From positions 1-10,237 of the IMG/VR virus record IMGVR_UViG_2778261151_000009: 10,237 nucleotides of DNA; one strand, 5' to 3'. Position 1 is the stretch's first letter, and the number at the start of each line of letters is the position of its first letter. The DNA comes from a virus (taxonomy: Duplodnaviria > Heunggongvirae > Uroviricota > Caudoviricetes). The notes under the pieces are model-generated. The model worked only from the letters and a program-made list of their open reading frames with translations. It had not been told where the DNA came from and made no database searches. This document shows, in pieces, positions 804 to 9,872 of this stretch. A program made the position numbers and the translations under genes.

Positions 804-878
<75 letters not shown>

Positions 879-881
879 ATA

Positions 882-957
<76 letters not shown>

Positions 958-959
958 AC

Positions 960-1036
960 TGGACCGCCACCGGGGACTCGAACCTCGCACACTCAACTTA
1001 AAGGGTTGACGCTCTTTCCTGATGAGCTAGTGGCGG
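960..1036 (-). tRNA. tRNA-like gene, Lys-type anticodon UUU but atypical anticodon loop (C at position 33)
   Basis: Reverse complement CCGCCACTAGCTCATCAGGAAAGAGCGTCAACCCTTTAAGTTGAGTGTGCGAGGTTCGAGTCCCCGGTGGCGGTCCA. Perfect 7-bp acceptor stem, 4-bp D stem, 5-bp anticodon stem (TCAAC/GTTGA), loop CCTTTAA, T-loop TTCGAGT, encoded CCA. Isotype uncertain. Confidence 0.55.
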
Positions 1037-1040
1037 TTGG

Positions 1041-1113
1041 TGGCCCTTGCTGGATTTGAACCAGCGACCTGGCGATTATGAGTCGCTCGCTCTCACCACT
1101 GAGCTAAAGGGCC
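1041..1113 (-). tRNA. tRNA with CAU anticodon; resembles tRNA-Ile2 (lysidine type) more than elongator tRNA-Met
   Basis: Reverse complement GGCCCTTTAGCTCAGTGGTGAGAGCGAGCGACTCATAATCGCCAGGTCGCTGGTTCAAATCCAGCAAGGGCCACCA; anticodon loop CUCAUAA. From memory the body resembles E. coli ileX-type tRNA. Confidence 0.75.
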
Positions 1114-1289: not shown

Positions 1290-1322
1290 GCATGAATATA
1301 TGCCTTTCAATCTACTTTTGCA
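1290..1322 (-). promoter_or_regulatory. Candidate late promoter pR' (-35 TTGCAA, ~16-17 bp spacer, -10 TATATT) overlapping the Q-like gene end
   Basis: Minus-strand reading ttgcaaaagtagattgaaaggcaTATATTcatg. Position between the Q-like gene and the terminator/tRNA/lysis block matches lambdoid late-region architecture. Confidence 0.45.
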
Positions 1323-1995
1323 ACACTTTGCTTTGAAAATGCCGTCTTTTTTTTGAACGTGTTCTCATTACAAACAATAAAGCCTCACTATCCAGTCGGT
1401 GAAAAATGTGTTTCATTGCAACCCAGTGACGAGTAAATGTTTTGGACCAGTTTTTAGTTGTCACTCCCGCCAGTAATGCCAGCTCCTGGTATTCATAACC
1501 TTCCCCACCAAAAAGTTCTGCTTTTACTGCCTGCGCCGCCAGCCAGATTAATTTTTTCAGGCGTTCCTGCGTTTTCCCTGCAATTTTTCTGGTACCGGAT
1601 TGAGCATTAAATTCATTCCACGCCCACTGTGTTATCGCGATCTGATATTCCCAACAAATACTCCCGCTGTAACACCACAACAACCAGGCTTTATGATGTT
1701 CTTCAAGAGACAGAACAGCCCGCCGCCACGATGATGTCGAAAACTCAACCGGACTGACCAGAGGAATTGACGTCCCCTTCGCCAGCGATTGCTTTCCCGG
1801 GATTGGTGGATTATCCCGCGTTATCATTTTTCCAGTCACTTCATCGCGGTACCGGATTTTTTTACGCCTGTAACGCCCTGTATCGAACATGGCATTCTCT
1901 TGCCAGGCTTCAAGCTGACCTTTTGTTGCCCCACTCAAATCAGCGGTGGCGATAATGAGCTGCTCACGCACAAACTGTAAATACTGGTTATTCAT
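1312..1995 (-). CDS. Putative late-gene antiterminator Q-like protein (227 aa from ATG at 1995; family assignment by position)
   Basis: ORF track 1312..2001 (its first codon is GTG). ATG at 1995-1993 overlaps the rusA stop as ATGA. Located immediately upstream of the pR'-like promoter, tR' hairpin, tRNAs and the S/R cassette, downstream of rusA. No motif verified by search. Confidence 0.55.
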   Translation of the reverse strand: MNNQYLQFVREQLIIATADLSGATKGQLEAWQENAMFDTGRYRRKKIRYRDEVTGKMITRDNPPIPGKQSLAKGTSIPLVSPVEFSTSSWRRAVLSLEEHHKAWLLWCYSGSICWEYQIAITQWAWNEFNAQSGTRKIAGKTQERLKKLIWLAAQAVKAELFGGEGYEYQELALLAGVTTKNWSKTFTRHWVAMKHIFHRLDSEALLFVMRTRSKKRRHFQSKVLQK

Positions 1996-2351
1996 GCGCA
2001 CCCCAGTTCTGTGATTTTTATCCCCAGCCGCCCACCAGGAACGAGCTGACCGCGCACAATATTGATTTCATCAAACTGCTCGTCGTCTATAAGTAGTCCA
2101 GCATGCGTCAGCGCATCCAGCGGTGCCTTCAGGATATTGTCCAGGTCACGACGGCGCTTATCCGGTGGCTCTGCAATAATCTTTATCGCCAGCCTTCCGG
2201 ACAGGTTTAATTTCAGTCGCTGCTGGCGAACAATTAGCGCCACATCACGGCGATAACGCTCACCGGCTTTTGATACAGTCGCCAGTAGGTGTTCACCGTT
2301 GGCGGGTAAGGCAAAACAAATTCTATGCGTTCGGTCATTTATGCTTTCCAC
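1992..2351 (-). CDS. rusA: Holliday-junction resolvase RusA; N-terminal region apparently frameshifted (possible pseudogene or sequencing error)
   Basis: ORF track protein contains PDKRRRDLDNILKAPLDALTHAGLLIDDEQ and GGRLGIKITELG, matching the RusA catalytic core. The canonical N-terminal motif (MTERIEFVLPYPPTVNTYWR) is in another frame, starting at ATG 2338-2336 right after the upstream stop. Confidence 0.8.
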   Translation of the reverse strand: MESINDRTHRICFALPANGEHLLATVSKAGERYRRDVALIVRQQRLKLNLSGRLAIKIIAEPPDKRRRDLDNILKAPLDALTHAGLLIDDEQFDEINIVRGQLVPGGRLGIKITELGCA

Positions 2352-3398: not shown

Positions 3399-3677
3399 TT
3401 ACCTCCAGATCCGTTGCTGGAACGTGCAGGACGGACGCGGTGGCCGTTCGGAATAAGGGAGCCTGACGAAGATTATCCAGTGACGATAATCGAGACTGAG
3501 GGCTTTCTTAATCTCGTATCCGTGTCTGCGGTAGCGCTGAATCAGCCATTCAGCCTGTTCTTCGGTGCAGGGGTCGTGCTGATACCAGTCAGATTTGAAT
3601 GCATGAGAACGCCGCCCGTGCCTGCTGGCAGGGGCGGCAGAGTTATCCGAATTGTAAAATTTGGTATCGTGCGCCAT
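3399..3677 (-). CDS. Small conserved prophage protein (Rem-like position), ~92 aa from internal ATG
   Basis: ORF track gives 3399..3806, but codons 1-43 are translated through the hok terminator hairpin and U-tract (3745-3776). ATG at 3677-3675 is the first start downstream of that terminator. Start and identity uncertain. Confidence 0.45.
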   Translation of the reverse strand: MAHDTKFYNSDNSAAPASRHGRRSHAFKSDWYQHDPCTEEQAEWLIQRYRRHGYEIKKALSLDYRHWIIFVRLPYSERPPRPSCTFQQRIWR

Positions 3678-3744
3678 CTGTTTTCTCTGCTGGCGCAGCA
3701 GGTGCCAGTTGTTCAGGCTGACGGATGGATTGTAAACCAGAACG

Positions 3745-3776
3745 ACCAGAAAAAACAAAACCCGCCGAAGCGGGTT
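3745..3776 (-). terminator. Intrinsic terminator ending the hok transcript
   Basis: 7-bp stem AACCCGC / GCGGGTT (3759-3776) with CGAA tetraloop, followed on the minus strand by UUUGUUUUUUCU. Not U-rich on the plus side, so unidirectional. Confidence 0.6.
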
Positions 3777-3844
3777 AAGTGCGGGTGCGTTGAGGATGCC
3801 TGACACATCAGCGGTGGCGAGGGATTTCTCCCCCGCCGGGTCTC

Positions 3845-4000
3845 TTACTCCTCAGGTTCGTAAGCTGTGAAGACAGCGACCTCCGTCTGGCCGGTTCGGA
3901 TTCGTACCTCGCAGAGGTCTTTCCTCGTTACCAGTGCCGTCACTATGACGGTTAAACAGATGACGATAAGGGCGATTAACATCGCCTTTTGCTGCTTCAT
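3845..4000 (-). CDS. hok: Hok/Gef family type I toxin (51 aa)
   Basis: MKQQKAMLIALIVICLTVIVTALVTRKDLCEVRIRTGQTEVAVFTAYEPEE is a single TM helix plus the conserved Hok periplasmic tail. ORF track extends it in frame to an upstream ATG at 4057. Flanked by promoter, terminator and 5'/3' complementary elements. Confidence 0.9.
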   Translation of the reverse strand: MKQQKAMLIALIVICLTVIVTALVTRKDLCEVRIRTGQTEVAVFTAYEPEE

Positions 4001-4176
4001 AGCCTGCTTCTCCTTGCCTTTCGGCACGTAAGAGGCTAACCTACATGTGTTCAGCATGGATTGAGCCTCAGATTAATGTTAAGCGTCTTGCAGGACGCGT
4101 AATGTTAACTGGGGCTTTTCTCTATCTGCCTTTTGGTGTTCATGCCTGAGACAGATAGCCTCAAGCACCCGCAGTC

Positions 4177-4204
4177 ATTCTACTTAACTAAGATTTCCCT
4201 GCAA
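4177..4204 (-). promoter_or_regulatory. Candidate hok promoter (-35 TTGCAG, 16-bp spacer, -10 TAGAAT)
   Basis: Minus-strand reading tTTGCAGggaaatcttagttaagTAGAATgactgcGGGTGC. Predicted start falls right at the 5' element (4158-4172) that is complementary to the 3' end of the transcript. Confidence 0.4.
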
Positions 4205-4259
4205 ACCGTTTTTGTCCGGCACAGTAAATATCCAACTAAACCAATAGCGTTCGCTGTAT

Positions 4260-4439
4260 TTACCGCCAGTATTCAATGCACATGACCGCCATGAACACCC
4301 CTAAAAAAAGGGCATTTATATGTCCAAACATTAATATCAAAACATCAATTTTTTCCATATACCTTGCTGTGAAGATGATGGGCATACATGATGCGAACAA
4401 CCAGAACGCAACAAACAAAAACTGCAATGCGTTTTTCAT
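4260..4439 (-). CDS. Small hydrophobic membrane protein, possibly a lipoprotein (59 aa from ATG with strong SD)
   Basis: ORF track 4260..4478; Met14 (ATG 4439-4437) is preceded by AGGGGGAATA. Protein MKNALQFLFVAFWLFASCMPIIFTARYMEKIDVLILMFGHINALFLGVFMAVMCIEYWR has a signal-like N-terminus ending in a lipobox-like FASC and a second hydrophobic helix. Lies in an AT-rich island. Confidence 0.5.
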   Translation of the reverse strand: MKNALQFLFVAFWLFASCMPIIFTARYMEKIDVLILMFGHINALFLGVFMAVMCIEYWR

Positions 4440-9591: not shown

Positions 9592-9703
9592 TTGAAAACC
9601 AGAACGGGTGGAATTATAGTGCACCTGCACCTCATAAAACGGGTGCCGGGCGTGGAAACCCGAAATCATTCACGGCGCATAACCGCGCTCAGGCGGTTTT
9701 TTT
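9592..9703 (+). promoter_or_regulatory. Promoter-terminator unit: -35 TTGAAA (9592-9597), 17 bp, -10 TATAGT (9615-9620); terminator hairpin ACCGC-gctcag-GCGGT plus T7 (9682-9703)
   Basis: Near-consensus sigma70 elements followed about 60-75 nt later by a stem-loop and seven T. Could be a small RNA or an attenuating leader for the Rha-family gene. Confidence 0.4.
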
Positions 9704-9872
9704 ATGCGTTAAGCACAGCCACATTCGCATTATGGTGGGGCGTGCAGGGCAACCGCAAGGCTGGCCGGGTTCCGTGATGACCGGTATTTCCACCCCTGTA
9801 CGTCTCACCACCCTTATGGTCGTGGAAAACCTCGGTGGTGAGTTAATCAAATTCATCGCGGAGGCTGCCATC

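What the first reader, a model, noticed from the sequence alone, without database searches (positions are those of the whole stretch)
3745..4204. Complete hok-type mRNA unit with 5'/3' long-range complementarity
The hok ORF is bracketed by a candidate promoter (4177-4204) and an intrinsic terminator (3745-3776). The segment GCGGGUGCUUGAGGC predicted at the 5' end (plus 4158-4172) is complementary to CCUCAACGCACCCGC near the 3' end (plus 3781-3797), giving 8+6 bp with one bulge. This matches the end-pairing that keeps full-length hok mRNA translationally silent in plasmid R1. An upstream ATG at 4057 extends Hok in frame by 19 codons, unlike the out-of-frame mok of R1. A Sok-like antisense RNA is expected on the plus strand around 4010-4120 but I could not identify one convincingly.
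Basis: partly seen in the sequence, partly recalled or inferred. Interest (0 to 1): 0.55.

Follow-up and report, generated by a model that had tools for sequence, protein, structure and literature searches.

The report
Complete prophage hok/sok toxin-antitoxin locus
This is an intact copy of the well-known hok/sok (hokD / hokW-sokW type) RNA-controlled toxin-antitoxin cassette sitting in an E. coli lambdoid prophage, with every regulatory RNA element of the textbook plasmid R1 system recognisable, so it is real but ordinary.

Summary
On the minus strand, 4205-3750 is a complete hok transcription unit. It has a promoter (TTTGCA-17-TAGAAT), a predicted start at G4170, a 170-nt leader, mok (70 codons), hok (51 codons) and a terminator.

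The 5' end, GGGUGCUUGAGG (4170-4159), pairs with CCUCAACGCACCC (3795-3783). This tac/fbi pairing appears in the minimum-energy fold. It lies at a fixed position in more than 50 homologous loci from many enterobacterial genera, and it co-varies: 5 of 12 pairs show compensatory changes.

It differs by one base from sokW of the Stx2 prophage Sp5. Published primers show that this same -10 was the one mutated in sokW, and that the RNA was detected by northern blot.

The in-frame mok is not unusual. K-12 mokC and phage mokW are in frame, as are about half of the homologues examined.

The locus is annotated hokD in RefSeq. It is the complete form of the 5'-truncated K-12 Qin hokD (relF). Verdict: already known, low interest.

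The parts
4177..4205 (-). hok promoter: -35 TTTGCA (4205-4200), 17-nt spacer, -10 TAGAAT (4182-4177)
   Evidence: Found by the consensus scan. In 77 of 80 cross-species homologues a TAnnnT hexamer sits exactly 6 nt before the first G of the tac element. Among 81 prophage copies the -10 is conserved (73 of 81) but the -35 varies.
4159..4170 (-). Predicted transcript start (G4170) and tac element GGGUGCUUGAGG, the 5' partner of the end pairing
   Evidence: The Rfam hok-leader model begins at 4170. Spacing from the -10 fits. It pairs with 3795-3783 in the minimum-energy fold. Identical in 78 of 81 prophage copies.
4142..4168 (-). Local 5' hairpin that can sequester tac in the nascent RNA (metastable hairpin of the R1 model)
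   Evidence: The first 45 nt fold into this hairpin at -17.2 kcal/mol, z = -2.6. RNAalifold finds it in the consensus with compensatory changes (columns 7-12 with 20-26).
4111..4117 (-). ucb / anti-SD box AAGCCCC. It pairs with the mok Shine-Dalgarno in the closed RNA and is the alternative partner of tac after 3' processing.
   Evidence: Pairing GCCCC(A/G) with (U/C)GAGGC appears in the fold. The flanking pair switches GC:13 / AU:12 among 27 homologues. The forced tac/ucb fold is only 1.6 kcal/mol above the minimum in the 3'-truncated RNA, against 12 kcal/mol in the full-length RNA.
3995..4170 (-). hok mRNA leader as matched by Rfam RF01794. The family is named 'sok', but the model is the sense-strand leader from tac to the hok AUG.
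   Evidence: 118.9 bits, gathering score 59, E = 2.9e-27, model positions 1-157 of 157.
3845..4057 (-). mok reading frame: 70 codons, ATG 4057, SD GAGG at 4069-4066. It is in frame with hok and shares its stop codon.
   Evidence: Listed as an ORF. 94% identical to the annotated MokW of phage VT2-Sakai, with the first 63 residues identical. The SD is found 8 nt upstream.
3845..4000 (-). hok toxin gene, 51 aa: MKQQKAMLIALIVICLTVIVTALVTRKDLCEVRIRTGQTEVAVFTAYEPEE
   Evidence: Pfam HOK_GEF 3e-23. Annotated hokD, WP_000813254.1, in a 100% identical stretch of a RefSeq genome.
3783..3795 (-). fbi element CCUCAACGCACCC (C3789 bulged), the 3' partner of tac
   Evidence: Fold. In 53 homologues the best tac site lies 47-70 nt (median 52) after the hok stop. 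Covariation.
3750..3776 (-). Intrinsic terminator: AACCCGC-UUCG-GCGGGUU followed by UUUGUUUUUU
   Evidence: Terminator scan. Similarity among 81 prophage copies stops right after the T-run.
4014..4042 (+). Sok promoter: -35 TTGCCT (4014-4019), 17-nt spacer, -10 TAACCT (4037-4042)
   Evidence: Read directly from the sequence. It has the same layout as the R1-type loci (TTGCGC-17-TATCCT), read from the R1-type rows. In the near-identical sokW, the published promoter-less mutant replaces exactly this TAACCTA (primers YO-421/422, PMC8621323). It falls below the threshold of the generic scan, with 3 of 6 matches in the -10.
4049..4125 (+). Sok antisense RNA, about 77 nt. It has a 5' single-stranded tail complementary to the mok start region, a long hairpin and a U-rich tail. 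It is complementary to hok mRNA nt 46-122 (ucb, mok SD, mok AUG).
   Evidence: The start is in the same register as the annotated K-12 sokC (G of GTTCAGC, 9 nt inside mok) and the end follows sokC. Fold -35.8 kcal/mol, z = -7.6. One base different from sokW. The published sokW northern probe YO-592 ends at the complement of G4049.

Best explanation

Inferred mechanism, by homology with plasmid R1:
1. A constitutive promoter makes a roughly 421-nt hok mRNA starting at G4170.
2. While it is being made, the 5' tac element is held in a local hairpin.
3. Once the 3' end is transcribed, tac pairs with fbi. This locks the RNA in a closed fold in which the ucb box covers the mok Shine-Dalgarno. Neither ribosomes nor Sok can then engage.
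4. Slow 3' trimming removes fbi. Tac can now pair with ucb, which frees the mok start region.
5. Translation of mok (here in frame with hok) opens the hok start site, so the membrane toxin is made.
6. This is prevented when the short-lived Sok RNA (4049-4125, plus strand) pairs with the mok start region and the duplex is destroyed.

What is shown here: the sequence elements, the predicted pairings and their covariation.

What is shown by others: toxicity of HokW, whose 51 residues differ from this Hok at four C-terminal positions, and antitoxin action and expression of sokW, whose gene differs from this one by one base.

What is only inferred for this copy: processing, refolding and the biological role. 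The candidate roles are prophage retention, help with lysis on induction, and phage exclusion.
For: - Protein and RNA family matches.
- 100% identity over 561 nt to a RefSeq stretch annotated hokD.
- 93% identity to hokW-sokW of VT2-Sakai/Sp5 over the transcription unit, with an almost identical leader and Sok gene.
- End pairing in the minimum-energy and centroid folds, z = -7.3.
- The RNAalifold consensus of 27 diverse homologues pairs columns 1-6 with 401-406, and ucb with the mok SD.
- For the named 12-bp tac/fbi helix, 93.8% of cells are paired against 87.7% in shuffles (0 of 500 reach it) and 35-57% when slid. There are 22 double-change cells (0 of 500 shuffles) and 5 pairs with compensatory change.
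- Each tac pairs better with its own 3' UTR than with foreign ones: -20.8 against -16.4 kcal/mol, 0 of 5000 permutations.
- The -10 hexamer is at a fixed distance in 77 of 80 loci.
- Removing fbi lowers the cost of the tac/ucb fold from 12 to 1.6 kcal/mol.
- Sok promoter, start and hairpin, and the published sokW mutagenesis and probe primers.
- The published description of the R1 mechanism (PMC9841398) and of hokW-sokW function (PMC8621323).
Against: - No transcript ends, processing, toxicity or Sok expression were measured for this copy.
- The minimum-energy fold of the 3'-truncated RNA keeps the mok SD covered and puts tac in the local 5' hairpin rather than on ucb. The activating refolding is therefore energetically allowed but not predicted outright.
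- The Sok -10 (TAACCT) is a weak match to consensus.
- Chromosomal hok loci tested in the 1990s did not give post-segregational killing (as summarised in bioRxiv 10.1101/2025.08.07.668861).
- Covariation counts involve related sequences, so the shuffle controls overstate significance. The slid controls are the fairer comparison.
Confidence: 0.9

Rival explanations
1. The cassette is structurally intact but functionally silent, a decaying relic like the K-12 chromosomal hok loci, with no present role.
For: K-12 hokA, hokC and hokE are interrupted by IS elements, and K-12 hokD lacks its whole leader. The literature summary says chromosomal loci did not mediate killing. The Sok -10 is weak.
Against: Every element is intact here and in most of 81 prophage copies: tac 78 of 81, fbi 70 of 81, hok start region 77 of 81. 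Compensatory changes across genera indicate continuing selection on the RNA fold. The near-identical hokW-sokW is expressed and active in Sp5.
Confidence: 0.08
2. The unit works as hok/sok, but its role is tied to prophage induction rather than classic post-segregational killing. Loss of Sok on induction lets Hok damage the membrane early and helps phage release.
For: This was reported for hokW-sokW of Sp5: sokW disappears after mitomycin C in a RecA-dependent way, HokW appears about 1 h before endolysin, and deletion halves phage yield (PMC8621323). Here the cassette lies in the same kind of place, between Ead/Ea22-like genes and the DUF968-RusA-Q module, co-directional with them.
Against: It rests on a single study of one related prophage. 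The window's prophage may be defective: in the closest RefSeq copy the Q gene and the large terminase subunit are flagged as frameshifted. Nothing in the sequence distinguishes this role from prophage retention or phage exclusion.
Confidence: 0.4
3. The 5'/3' complementarity is a chance match in a GC-rich 3' UTR and has no structural role.
For: 1.3% of shuffled 3' UTRs pair as well with the 5' 14-mer, so the single-sequence evidence alone is only moderate.
Against: The site has a fixed position in 53 homologues. There are compensatory changes at tac positions 4, 7, 8, 9, 10 and 12. Own 3' UTRs pair better than foreign ones. RNAalifold recovers the pairing independently. Similarity between distant homologues ends immediately after the fbi box.
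Confidence: 0.01

Closest known systems
hokW-sokW (mokW) of Stx2 prophage Sp5 / phage VT2-Sakai (Takada et al. 2021, PMC8621323)
   Same: 93% nucleotide identity from the -10 to the fbi box. tac, ucb, mok SD and start, Sok promoter and fbi are identical. Sok differs by one loop base. Mok is 94% identical and also in frame, 70 aa. Both sit in a lambdoid prophage.
   Different: There are four C-terminal Hok residue changes (AVFTAYEPEE against AVFVDYESEK). This copy has a canonical hairpin-plus-T-run terminator right after fbi, whereas similarity to VT2-Sakai ends a few bases after fbi and its downstream sequence is unrelated. The neighbouring genes differ.
hokD (relF) of the cryptic prophage Qin, E. 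coli K-12
   Same: The same Hok subtype and the same downstream neighbourhood (DUF968/ydfU, Q). 98.5% identity over window 3751-4014. RefSeq names the window's gene hokD.
   Different: The K-12 copy starts only 14 nt before the hok ATG. Its promoter, tac, ucb, mok start and the Sok gene are replaced by relBE. The window holds the complete ancestral-type unit.
hok/sok (parB) of plasmid R1, the reference system
   Same: The same architecture and order of elements: promoter, tac, metastable hairpin, ucb, Sok target, mok, hok, fbi, terminator, and a convergent Sok promoter with -35 and -10 in the same leader positions.
   Different: Hok is about 39% identical. tac/fbi is GGCGCUU/AAGCGCC in R1 instead of GGGUGCUUGAGG/CCUCAACGCACCC. 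R1 mok is in the +1 frame, 58 nt before hok, against 57 nt and in frame here. R1 lacks the 18-nt extension of the Sok hairpin. R1 is a plasmid stabilisation locus.
hokC/mokC/sokC (gef) of E. coli K-12
   Same: 82% Hok identity. mokC is in frame with hokC with exactly 19 extra codons (MLNTCR...), and sokC starts in the same register.
   Different: The K-12 copy is interrupted by IS186 downstream of hokC, and it lacks the 18-nt hairpin insert. It is chromosomal rather than in a prophage.

Membership tests
[quoted passage not shown] | Small hydrophobic Hok/Gef-family toxin ORF of about 50 aa | tested here: met
   Pfam PF01848 E = 3e-23, profile positions 1-42 of 42. Annotated hokD in an identical RefSeq stretch.
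[quoted passage not shown] | Conserved structured leader of about 150-175 nt between the transcript start and the hok AUG | tested here: met
   Rfam RF01794 full-length match, 118.9 bits against a gathering score of 59. Leader of 170 nt.
[quoted passage not shown] | Long-range pairing of the extreme 5' end (tac) with a box in the 3' UTR (fbi), supported by covariation | tested here: met
   Minimum-energy fold, consensus fold, pair counts with controls, own against foreign 3' UTR test, fixed site position.
[quoted passage not shown] | Overlapping upstream reading frame mok with its own SD, sequestered by an upstream complementary box | tested here: met
   ATG 4057 with GAGG 8 nt upstream, open through the hok start. 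ucb/SD helix with a GC-to-AU swap, 13:12. The frame relative to hok varies in the family, about half in frame.
[quoted passage not shown] | Cis-encoded antisense Sok RNA with its own promoter, covering the mok translation start | tested here: met
   Met at sequence level. -35/-10/start at 4014-4049, hairpin and U tail. Same register as the annotated sokC. Near-identity to the experimentally studied sokW and its mutated -10. Expression from this copy was not testable.
[quoted passage not shown] | 3' exonucleolytic processing that removes fbi and triggers refolding to a translatable, Sok-accessible form | tested here: inconclusive
   Energy gap between the tac/ucb fold and the minimum is 12 kcal/mol in the full-length RNA and 1.6 kcal/mol in the truncated RNA. 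But the minimum-energy fold of the truncated RNA does not adopt the tac/ucb fold. The processing itself needs experiment.
[quoted passage not shown] | Toxicity of Hok and neutralisation by Sok | not testable with these tools
   Shown for HokW/sokW, which is 94% identical at the Mok/Hok protein level (PMC8621323). Not measured for this allele.

The most novel reading that the evidence does not exclude
The Sok promoter fires head-on into the prophage early-right (nin to Q) operon, while the hok unit is co-directional with it. Read-through transcription after induction could therefore occlude the weak Sok promoter. The stored hok mRNA pool would then escape repression. This would be the unexplained trigger behind the RecA-dependent disappearance of sokW reported for Sp5. 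It would make prophage hok/sok cassettes induction sensors wired through transcriptional interference.
Probability: 0.25. Interest if true: 0.4.

Novelty: already known. Interest (0 to 1): 0.12.

Why it matters
The practical value is for annotation. RefSeq marks only the 51-codon hokD here, whereas the functional unit is a 455-bp cassette (4205-3750). That cassette includes mok, a Sok RNA gene and defined RNA control boxes.

The window also shows what the complete form of the truncated K-12 hokD/relF locus looks like. The cassette boundaries in prophages coincide with the transcript: similarity runs from the -10 to the terminator.

It adds no new biology beyond the R1 model (Gerdes and co-workers) and the hokW-sokW study.

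Tried and rejected
- A first literature search on hokD/sokD/mokD returned only unrelated word-start matches.
I used a DNA pattern from the middle of the leader instead, which is independent of tac and fbi.
- The first R1-type plasmid locus I fetched (L086) has an IS150 in its leader and could not serve as a reference. R1-identical loci L197 and L202 were used instead.
- The generic promoter scan does not report the Sok promoter, because TAACCT matches only 3 of 6 consensus positions. I located it by homology and from published primers.
- Minimum-energy folding of the 3'-truncated RNA did not reproduce the R1 tac/ucb rearrangement. A constrained fold showed it lies 1.6 kcal/mol above the minimum.
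- RNAalifold assigned tac positions 7-12 to the local hairpin rather than to fbi, because bulge positions shift between homologues. The full 12-bp helix was therefore tested as a named structure.
The two 5'-most pairs (4172 and 4171) lie upstream of the predicted start and do not co-vary.
- I rejected the idea that an in-frame mok is distinctive.

Full report
**What is in the sequence.**
- The minus strand of 4205-3750 reads as follows: TTTGCA-17 nt-TAGAAT (4205..4177), six bases, then GGGTGCTTGAGG starting at 4170.
- The consensus scan reports exactly this promoter. It is the only promoter-like site in 3600-4400. The only terminator-like site there is stem 3776..3759, followed by a T-run to 3750.
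- The ORF 4057-3845 (70 aa) matches Pfam HOK_GEF at E = 3e-23 over residues 25-66.
- The leader 4170-3995 matches Rfam RF01794 over the whole model at 118.9 bits, against a gathering score of 59.
- RF01794 is named 'sok'. However, its consensus starts with the hok 5' end and finishes at the hok AUG, and the hit is on the hok strand. It is therefore evidence for the hok leader, not for the antisense RNA as such.

**The end pairing.**
They pair 8+6 with C3789 bulged.
- A 422-nt RNA (4172-3751) folds to -178.8 kcal/mol, z = -7.29, with 0 of 100 shuffles as good. Both the minimum-energy and centroid structures close the ends through this helix.
- Taken alone the match is only moderately unlikely: 39 of 3000 dinucleotide shuffles of the 3' UTR pair as well with the first 14 nt. 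Across the whole window, both strands, only one other site does, apart from the element's own antisense.

**Where the transcript starts.**
- In 77 of 80 homologous loci from many species a TAnnnT hexamer lies exactly 6 nt before the first G of the conserved 5' element.
- The two bases upstream of that G vary freely (GC, GT, CC, AC, TC, TT), with no matching change after the fbi box.
- The start is therefore most likely G4170, and the RNA helix is 6+6 bp: GGGUGC/GCACCC and UUGAGG/CCUCAA.

- I collected 80 prophage copies encoding the identical Hok from IMG/VR.
- I collected a further 120 loci from one-genome-per-species contigs with a pattern taken from the middle of the leader (GCCTCTTAC-N11-12-CAAGGAGAA). 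This pattern contains neither tac nor fbi. Of these, 89 have a Hok ORF of 40-60 aa.
- In 53 loci of the GGG-type, the best duplex site for the 5' 14-mer lies 47-70 nt (median 52) after the hok stop.
- The pair types switch: U-A to C-G at positions 4, 7 and 8; G-C to U-A at position 9; A-U to G-C at position 10; G-C to A-U at position 12, in 29 against 21 loci.
- Each 5' element pairs better with its own 3' UTR than with those of loci carrying a different element: -20.8 against -16.4 kcal/mol. No permutation out of 5000 reached the observed mean.
- On an alignment of 27 diverse full-length units, RNAalifold by itself pairs columns 1-6 with 401-406. It also pairs the GCCCC box with the mok Shine-Dalgarno, whose flanking pair is G-C in 13 sequences and A-U in 12.
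- For the named 12-bp helix, 93.8% of cells are paired, against 87.7% in shuffles (0 of 500 reach it) and 35-57% when the partner is slid by 1-3 columns. There are 22 double-change cells (0 of 500 shuffles), and 5 of 12 pairs carry compensatory changes.
- The sequences are related, so the shuffle figures are generous. The slid controls and the many independent pair types make the case.
- Similarity between distant homologues stops immediately after the fbi box.
- Among the close prophage copies, similarity runs from the -10 to the terminator T-run and then breaks.

**The other R1 elements.**
- PMC9841398 summarises the R1 model as follows:
  - tac/fbi closes the full-length RNA.
  - ucb covers the mok SD.
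  - 3' processing allows tac/ucb pairing.
  - A metastable 5' hairpin holds tac during transcription.
  - Sok binds the opened RNA.
- All of these have counterparts here. The 5' hairpin is at 4168-4142. The ucb box AAGCCCC is at 4117-4111. The mok SD GAGG is at 4069-4066, and the mok ATG is at 4057.
- Forcing tac/ucb costs 12 kcal/mol in the full-length RNA but only 1.6 kcal/mol once 3798-3750 is removed.
- The unconstrained fold of the truncated RNA, however, keeps the SD covered. The activating switch is thus permitted but not demonstrated.

**The Sok gene.**
- On the plus strand, TTGCCT (4014-4019), 17 nt and TAACCT (4037-4042) precede G4049. The R1-type loci have the same layout (TTGCGC-17-TATCCT).
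- RNA from 4049 has a 5' tail complementary to the mok start, an extended hairpin and a CUUUUCUCU tail. It folds at -35.8 kcal/mol, z = -7.6.
- The annotated K-12 sokC starts at the equivalent G and ends at the equivalent ...TTTTCTCTAT. This gives 4049-4125 here.
- The whole leader is almost identical to hokW-sokW of phage VT2-Sakai (Sp5), and Sok differs by one loop base.
- In the published study of that locus, the promoter-less sokW mutant was made with primers that replace exactly TAACCTA. The sokW northern probe ends at the complement of G4049.
- That study also found that HokW is toxic, that sokW counteracts it, and that both RNAs are detected in the Sp5 lysogen.

**mok frame.**
- R1-identical loci have mok 58 nt before hok, in the +1 frame. 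This agrees with the positions given in PMC9841398.
- Here the distance is 57 nt, which is in frame.
- The same in-frame arrangement is found elsewhere:
  - K-12 mokC/hokC share a stop, with 19 extra codons.
  - mokW is annotated as a 70-aa product in VT2-Sakai and as two nested CDS in Stx2a_F422.
  - About half of the loci examined are in frame (57 or 60 nt), against the rest at 58 nt.
- K-12 mokB is out of frame. The in-frame mok is therefore normal family variation.

**Identity and context.**
- The 561 nt around the locus are 100% identical to E. coli FDAARGOS_944, where the CDS is annotated hokD. Of 5426 complete E. coli genomes, 2667 hold at least 80% of the query.
- On the same strand, the neighbours are Ead/Ea22-like genes upstream, and DUF968, RusA, antiterminator Q and four tRNA genes downstream. 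This is the nin-to-Q segment of a lambdoid prophage.
- K-12 Qin has the same order, but its hokD matches only 3751-4014. The promoter, tac, ucb, mok start and Sok are replaced by relBE.
- hok genes are reported to be enriched in prophages (bioRxiv 10.1101/2025.08.07.668861).

**Verdict.**
- The locus belongs to a family whose mechanism was worked out on R1, and whose phylogenetic covariation was, to my knowledge, published in 1997 (Gultyaev, Franch and Gerdes, J Mol Biol; not in the searchable library).
- A 93%-identical prophage allele has been studied experimentally. Nothing here departs from that family.
- Biological role remains open: prophage retention, lysis help on induction, or phage exclusion. 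The one untested idea worth noting is promoter occlusion of Sok by read-through from the early-right operon.

Noticed in passing
window 9627-9815 (+): Rfam hits to isrK (9627-9703, 67.7 bits) and C4 antisense RNA (9728-9815, 76.3 bits). These are the paired small RNAs of P1/P7/Gifsy-type antirepressor control regions, at the right end of the window.
   Followed up: no
window 804-1113 (-): Four tandem tRNA genes downstream of the Q antiterminator: Gly-TCC, Thr-TGT, Lys-TTT and a CAT-anticodon tRNA. ARAGORN calls the last one Met, while RefSeq calls the corresponding gene in the closest genome copy (98% over most of the window) Ile.
   Followed up: partly
window 3751-4014 against K-12 NC_000913.3 1645024-1645288 (L210): K-12 Qin hokD (relF) is a 5'-truncated copy of this cassette. 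It is 98.5% identical from 14 nt before the hok ATG to the terminator, with the whole leader and the Sok gene replaced by relBE.
   Followed up: yes
window 3859-3862 (-), Hok codon 47: Tyr47 is UAC followed by G, the UACG motif of TadA A-to-I editing that recodes Tyr to Cys in hok mRNAs (mentioned for hokD in bioRxiv 10.1101/2025.08.07.668861). In 67 distinct homologous CDS, all 58 Tyr codons at this site are UAC+G and 9 loci hard-code Cys.
   Followed up: partly
window 3995-4170 (-): Rfam family RF01794 is named 'sok antitoxin', but its consensus is the sense-strand hok leader from the 5' tac box to the hok AUG. Hits therefore mark the hok strand, and the real Sok is antisense to about model positions 45-115.
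   Followed up: yes
window 4083-4100: An 18-nt palindromic insert (ACGCGTCCTGCAAGACGC) lengthens the hairpin shared by the hok leader and Sok. It is present in hokD, hokW and P1-like plasmid copies and in some loci from other species. It is absent in hokC, hokB, hokE and R1.
   Followed up: partly
window 4177-4215, compared with L002-L081: Among 81 prophage copies the -35 hexamer of the hok promoter differs (TTTGCA 5, TTTGCG 35, TTGGCG 18, others), and sequence further upstream is unrelated. Everything from the -10 to the terminator is conserved, so the mosaic boundaries coincide with the transcript.
   Followed up: partly
L096, L121, L136, L154: Several genomes (Escherichia whittamii, Atlantibacter, Franconibacter, an unnamed Enterobacteriaceae) carry two hok loci in tandem, 500-770 bp apart.
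   Followed up: no
H115 (PP818812.1); L124, L135, L164: Near-identical hokD-type sequence occurs in a record named Actinobacillus phage vB_Apl-pPE4 (96%). It also occurs in short contigs labelled Xanthomonas pisi, Candidatus Scatousia and a Haemophilus MAG. This could be contamination, mis-binning or real transfer.
   Followed up: no
window 1312-2001 (-): The Q antiterminator ORF is open for 229 codons with a full-length Pfam match. The corresponding CDS in the closest RefSeq genome is flagged as frameshifted, as is the large terminase there. The prophage may be defective in some hosts.
   Followed up: no
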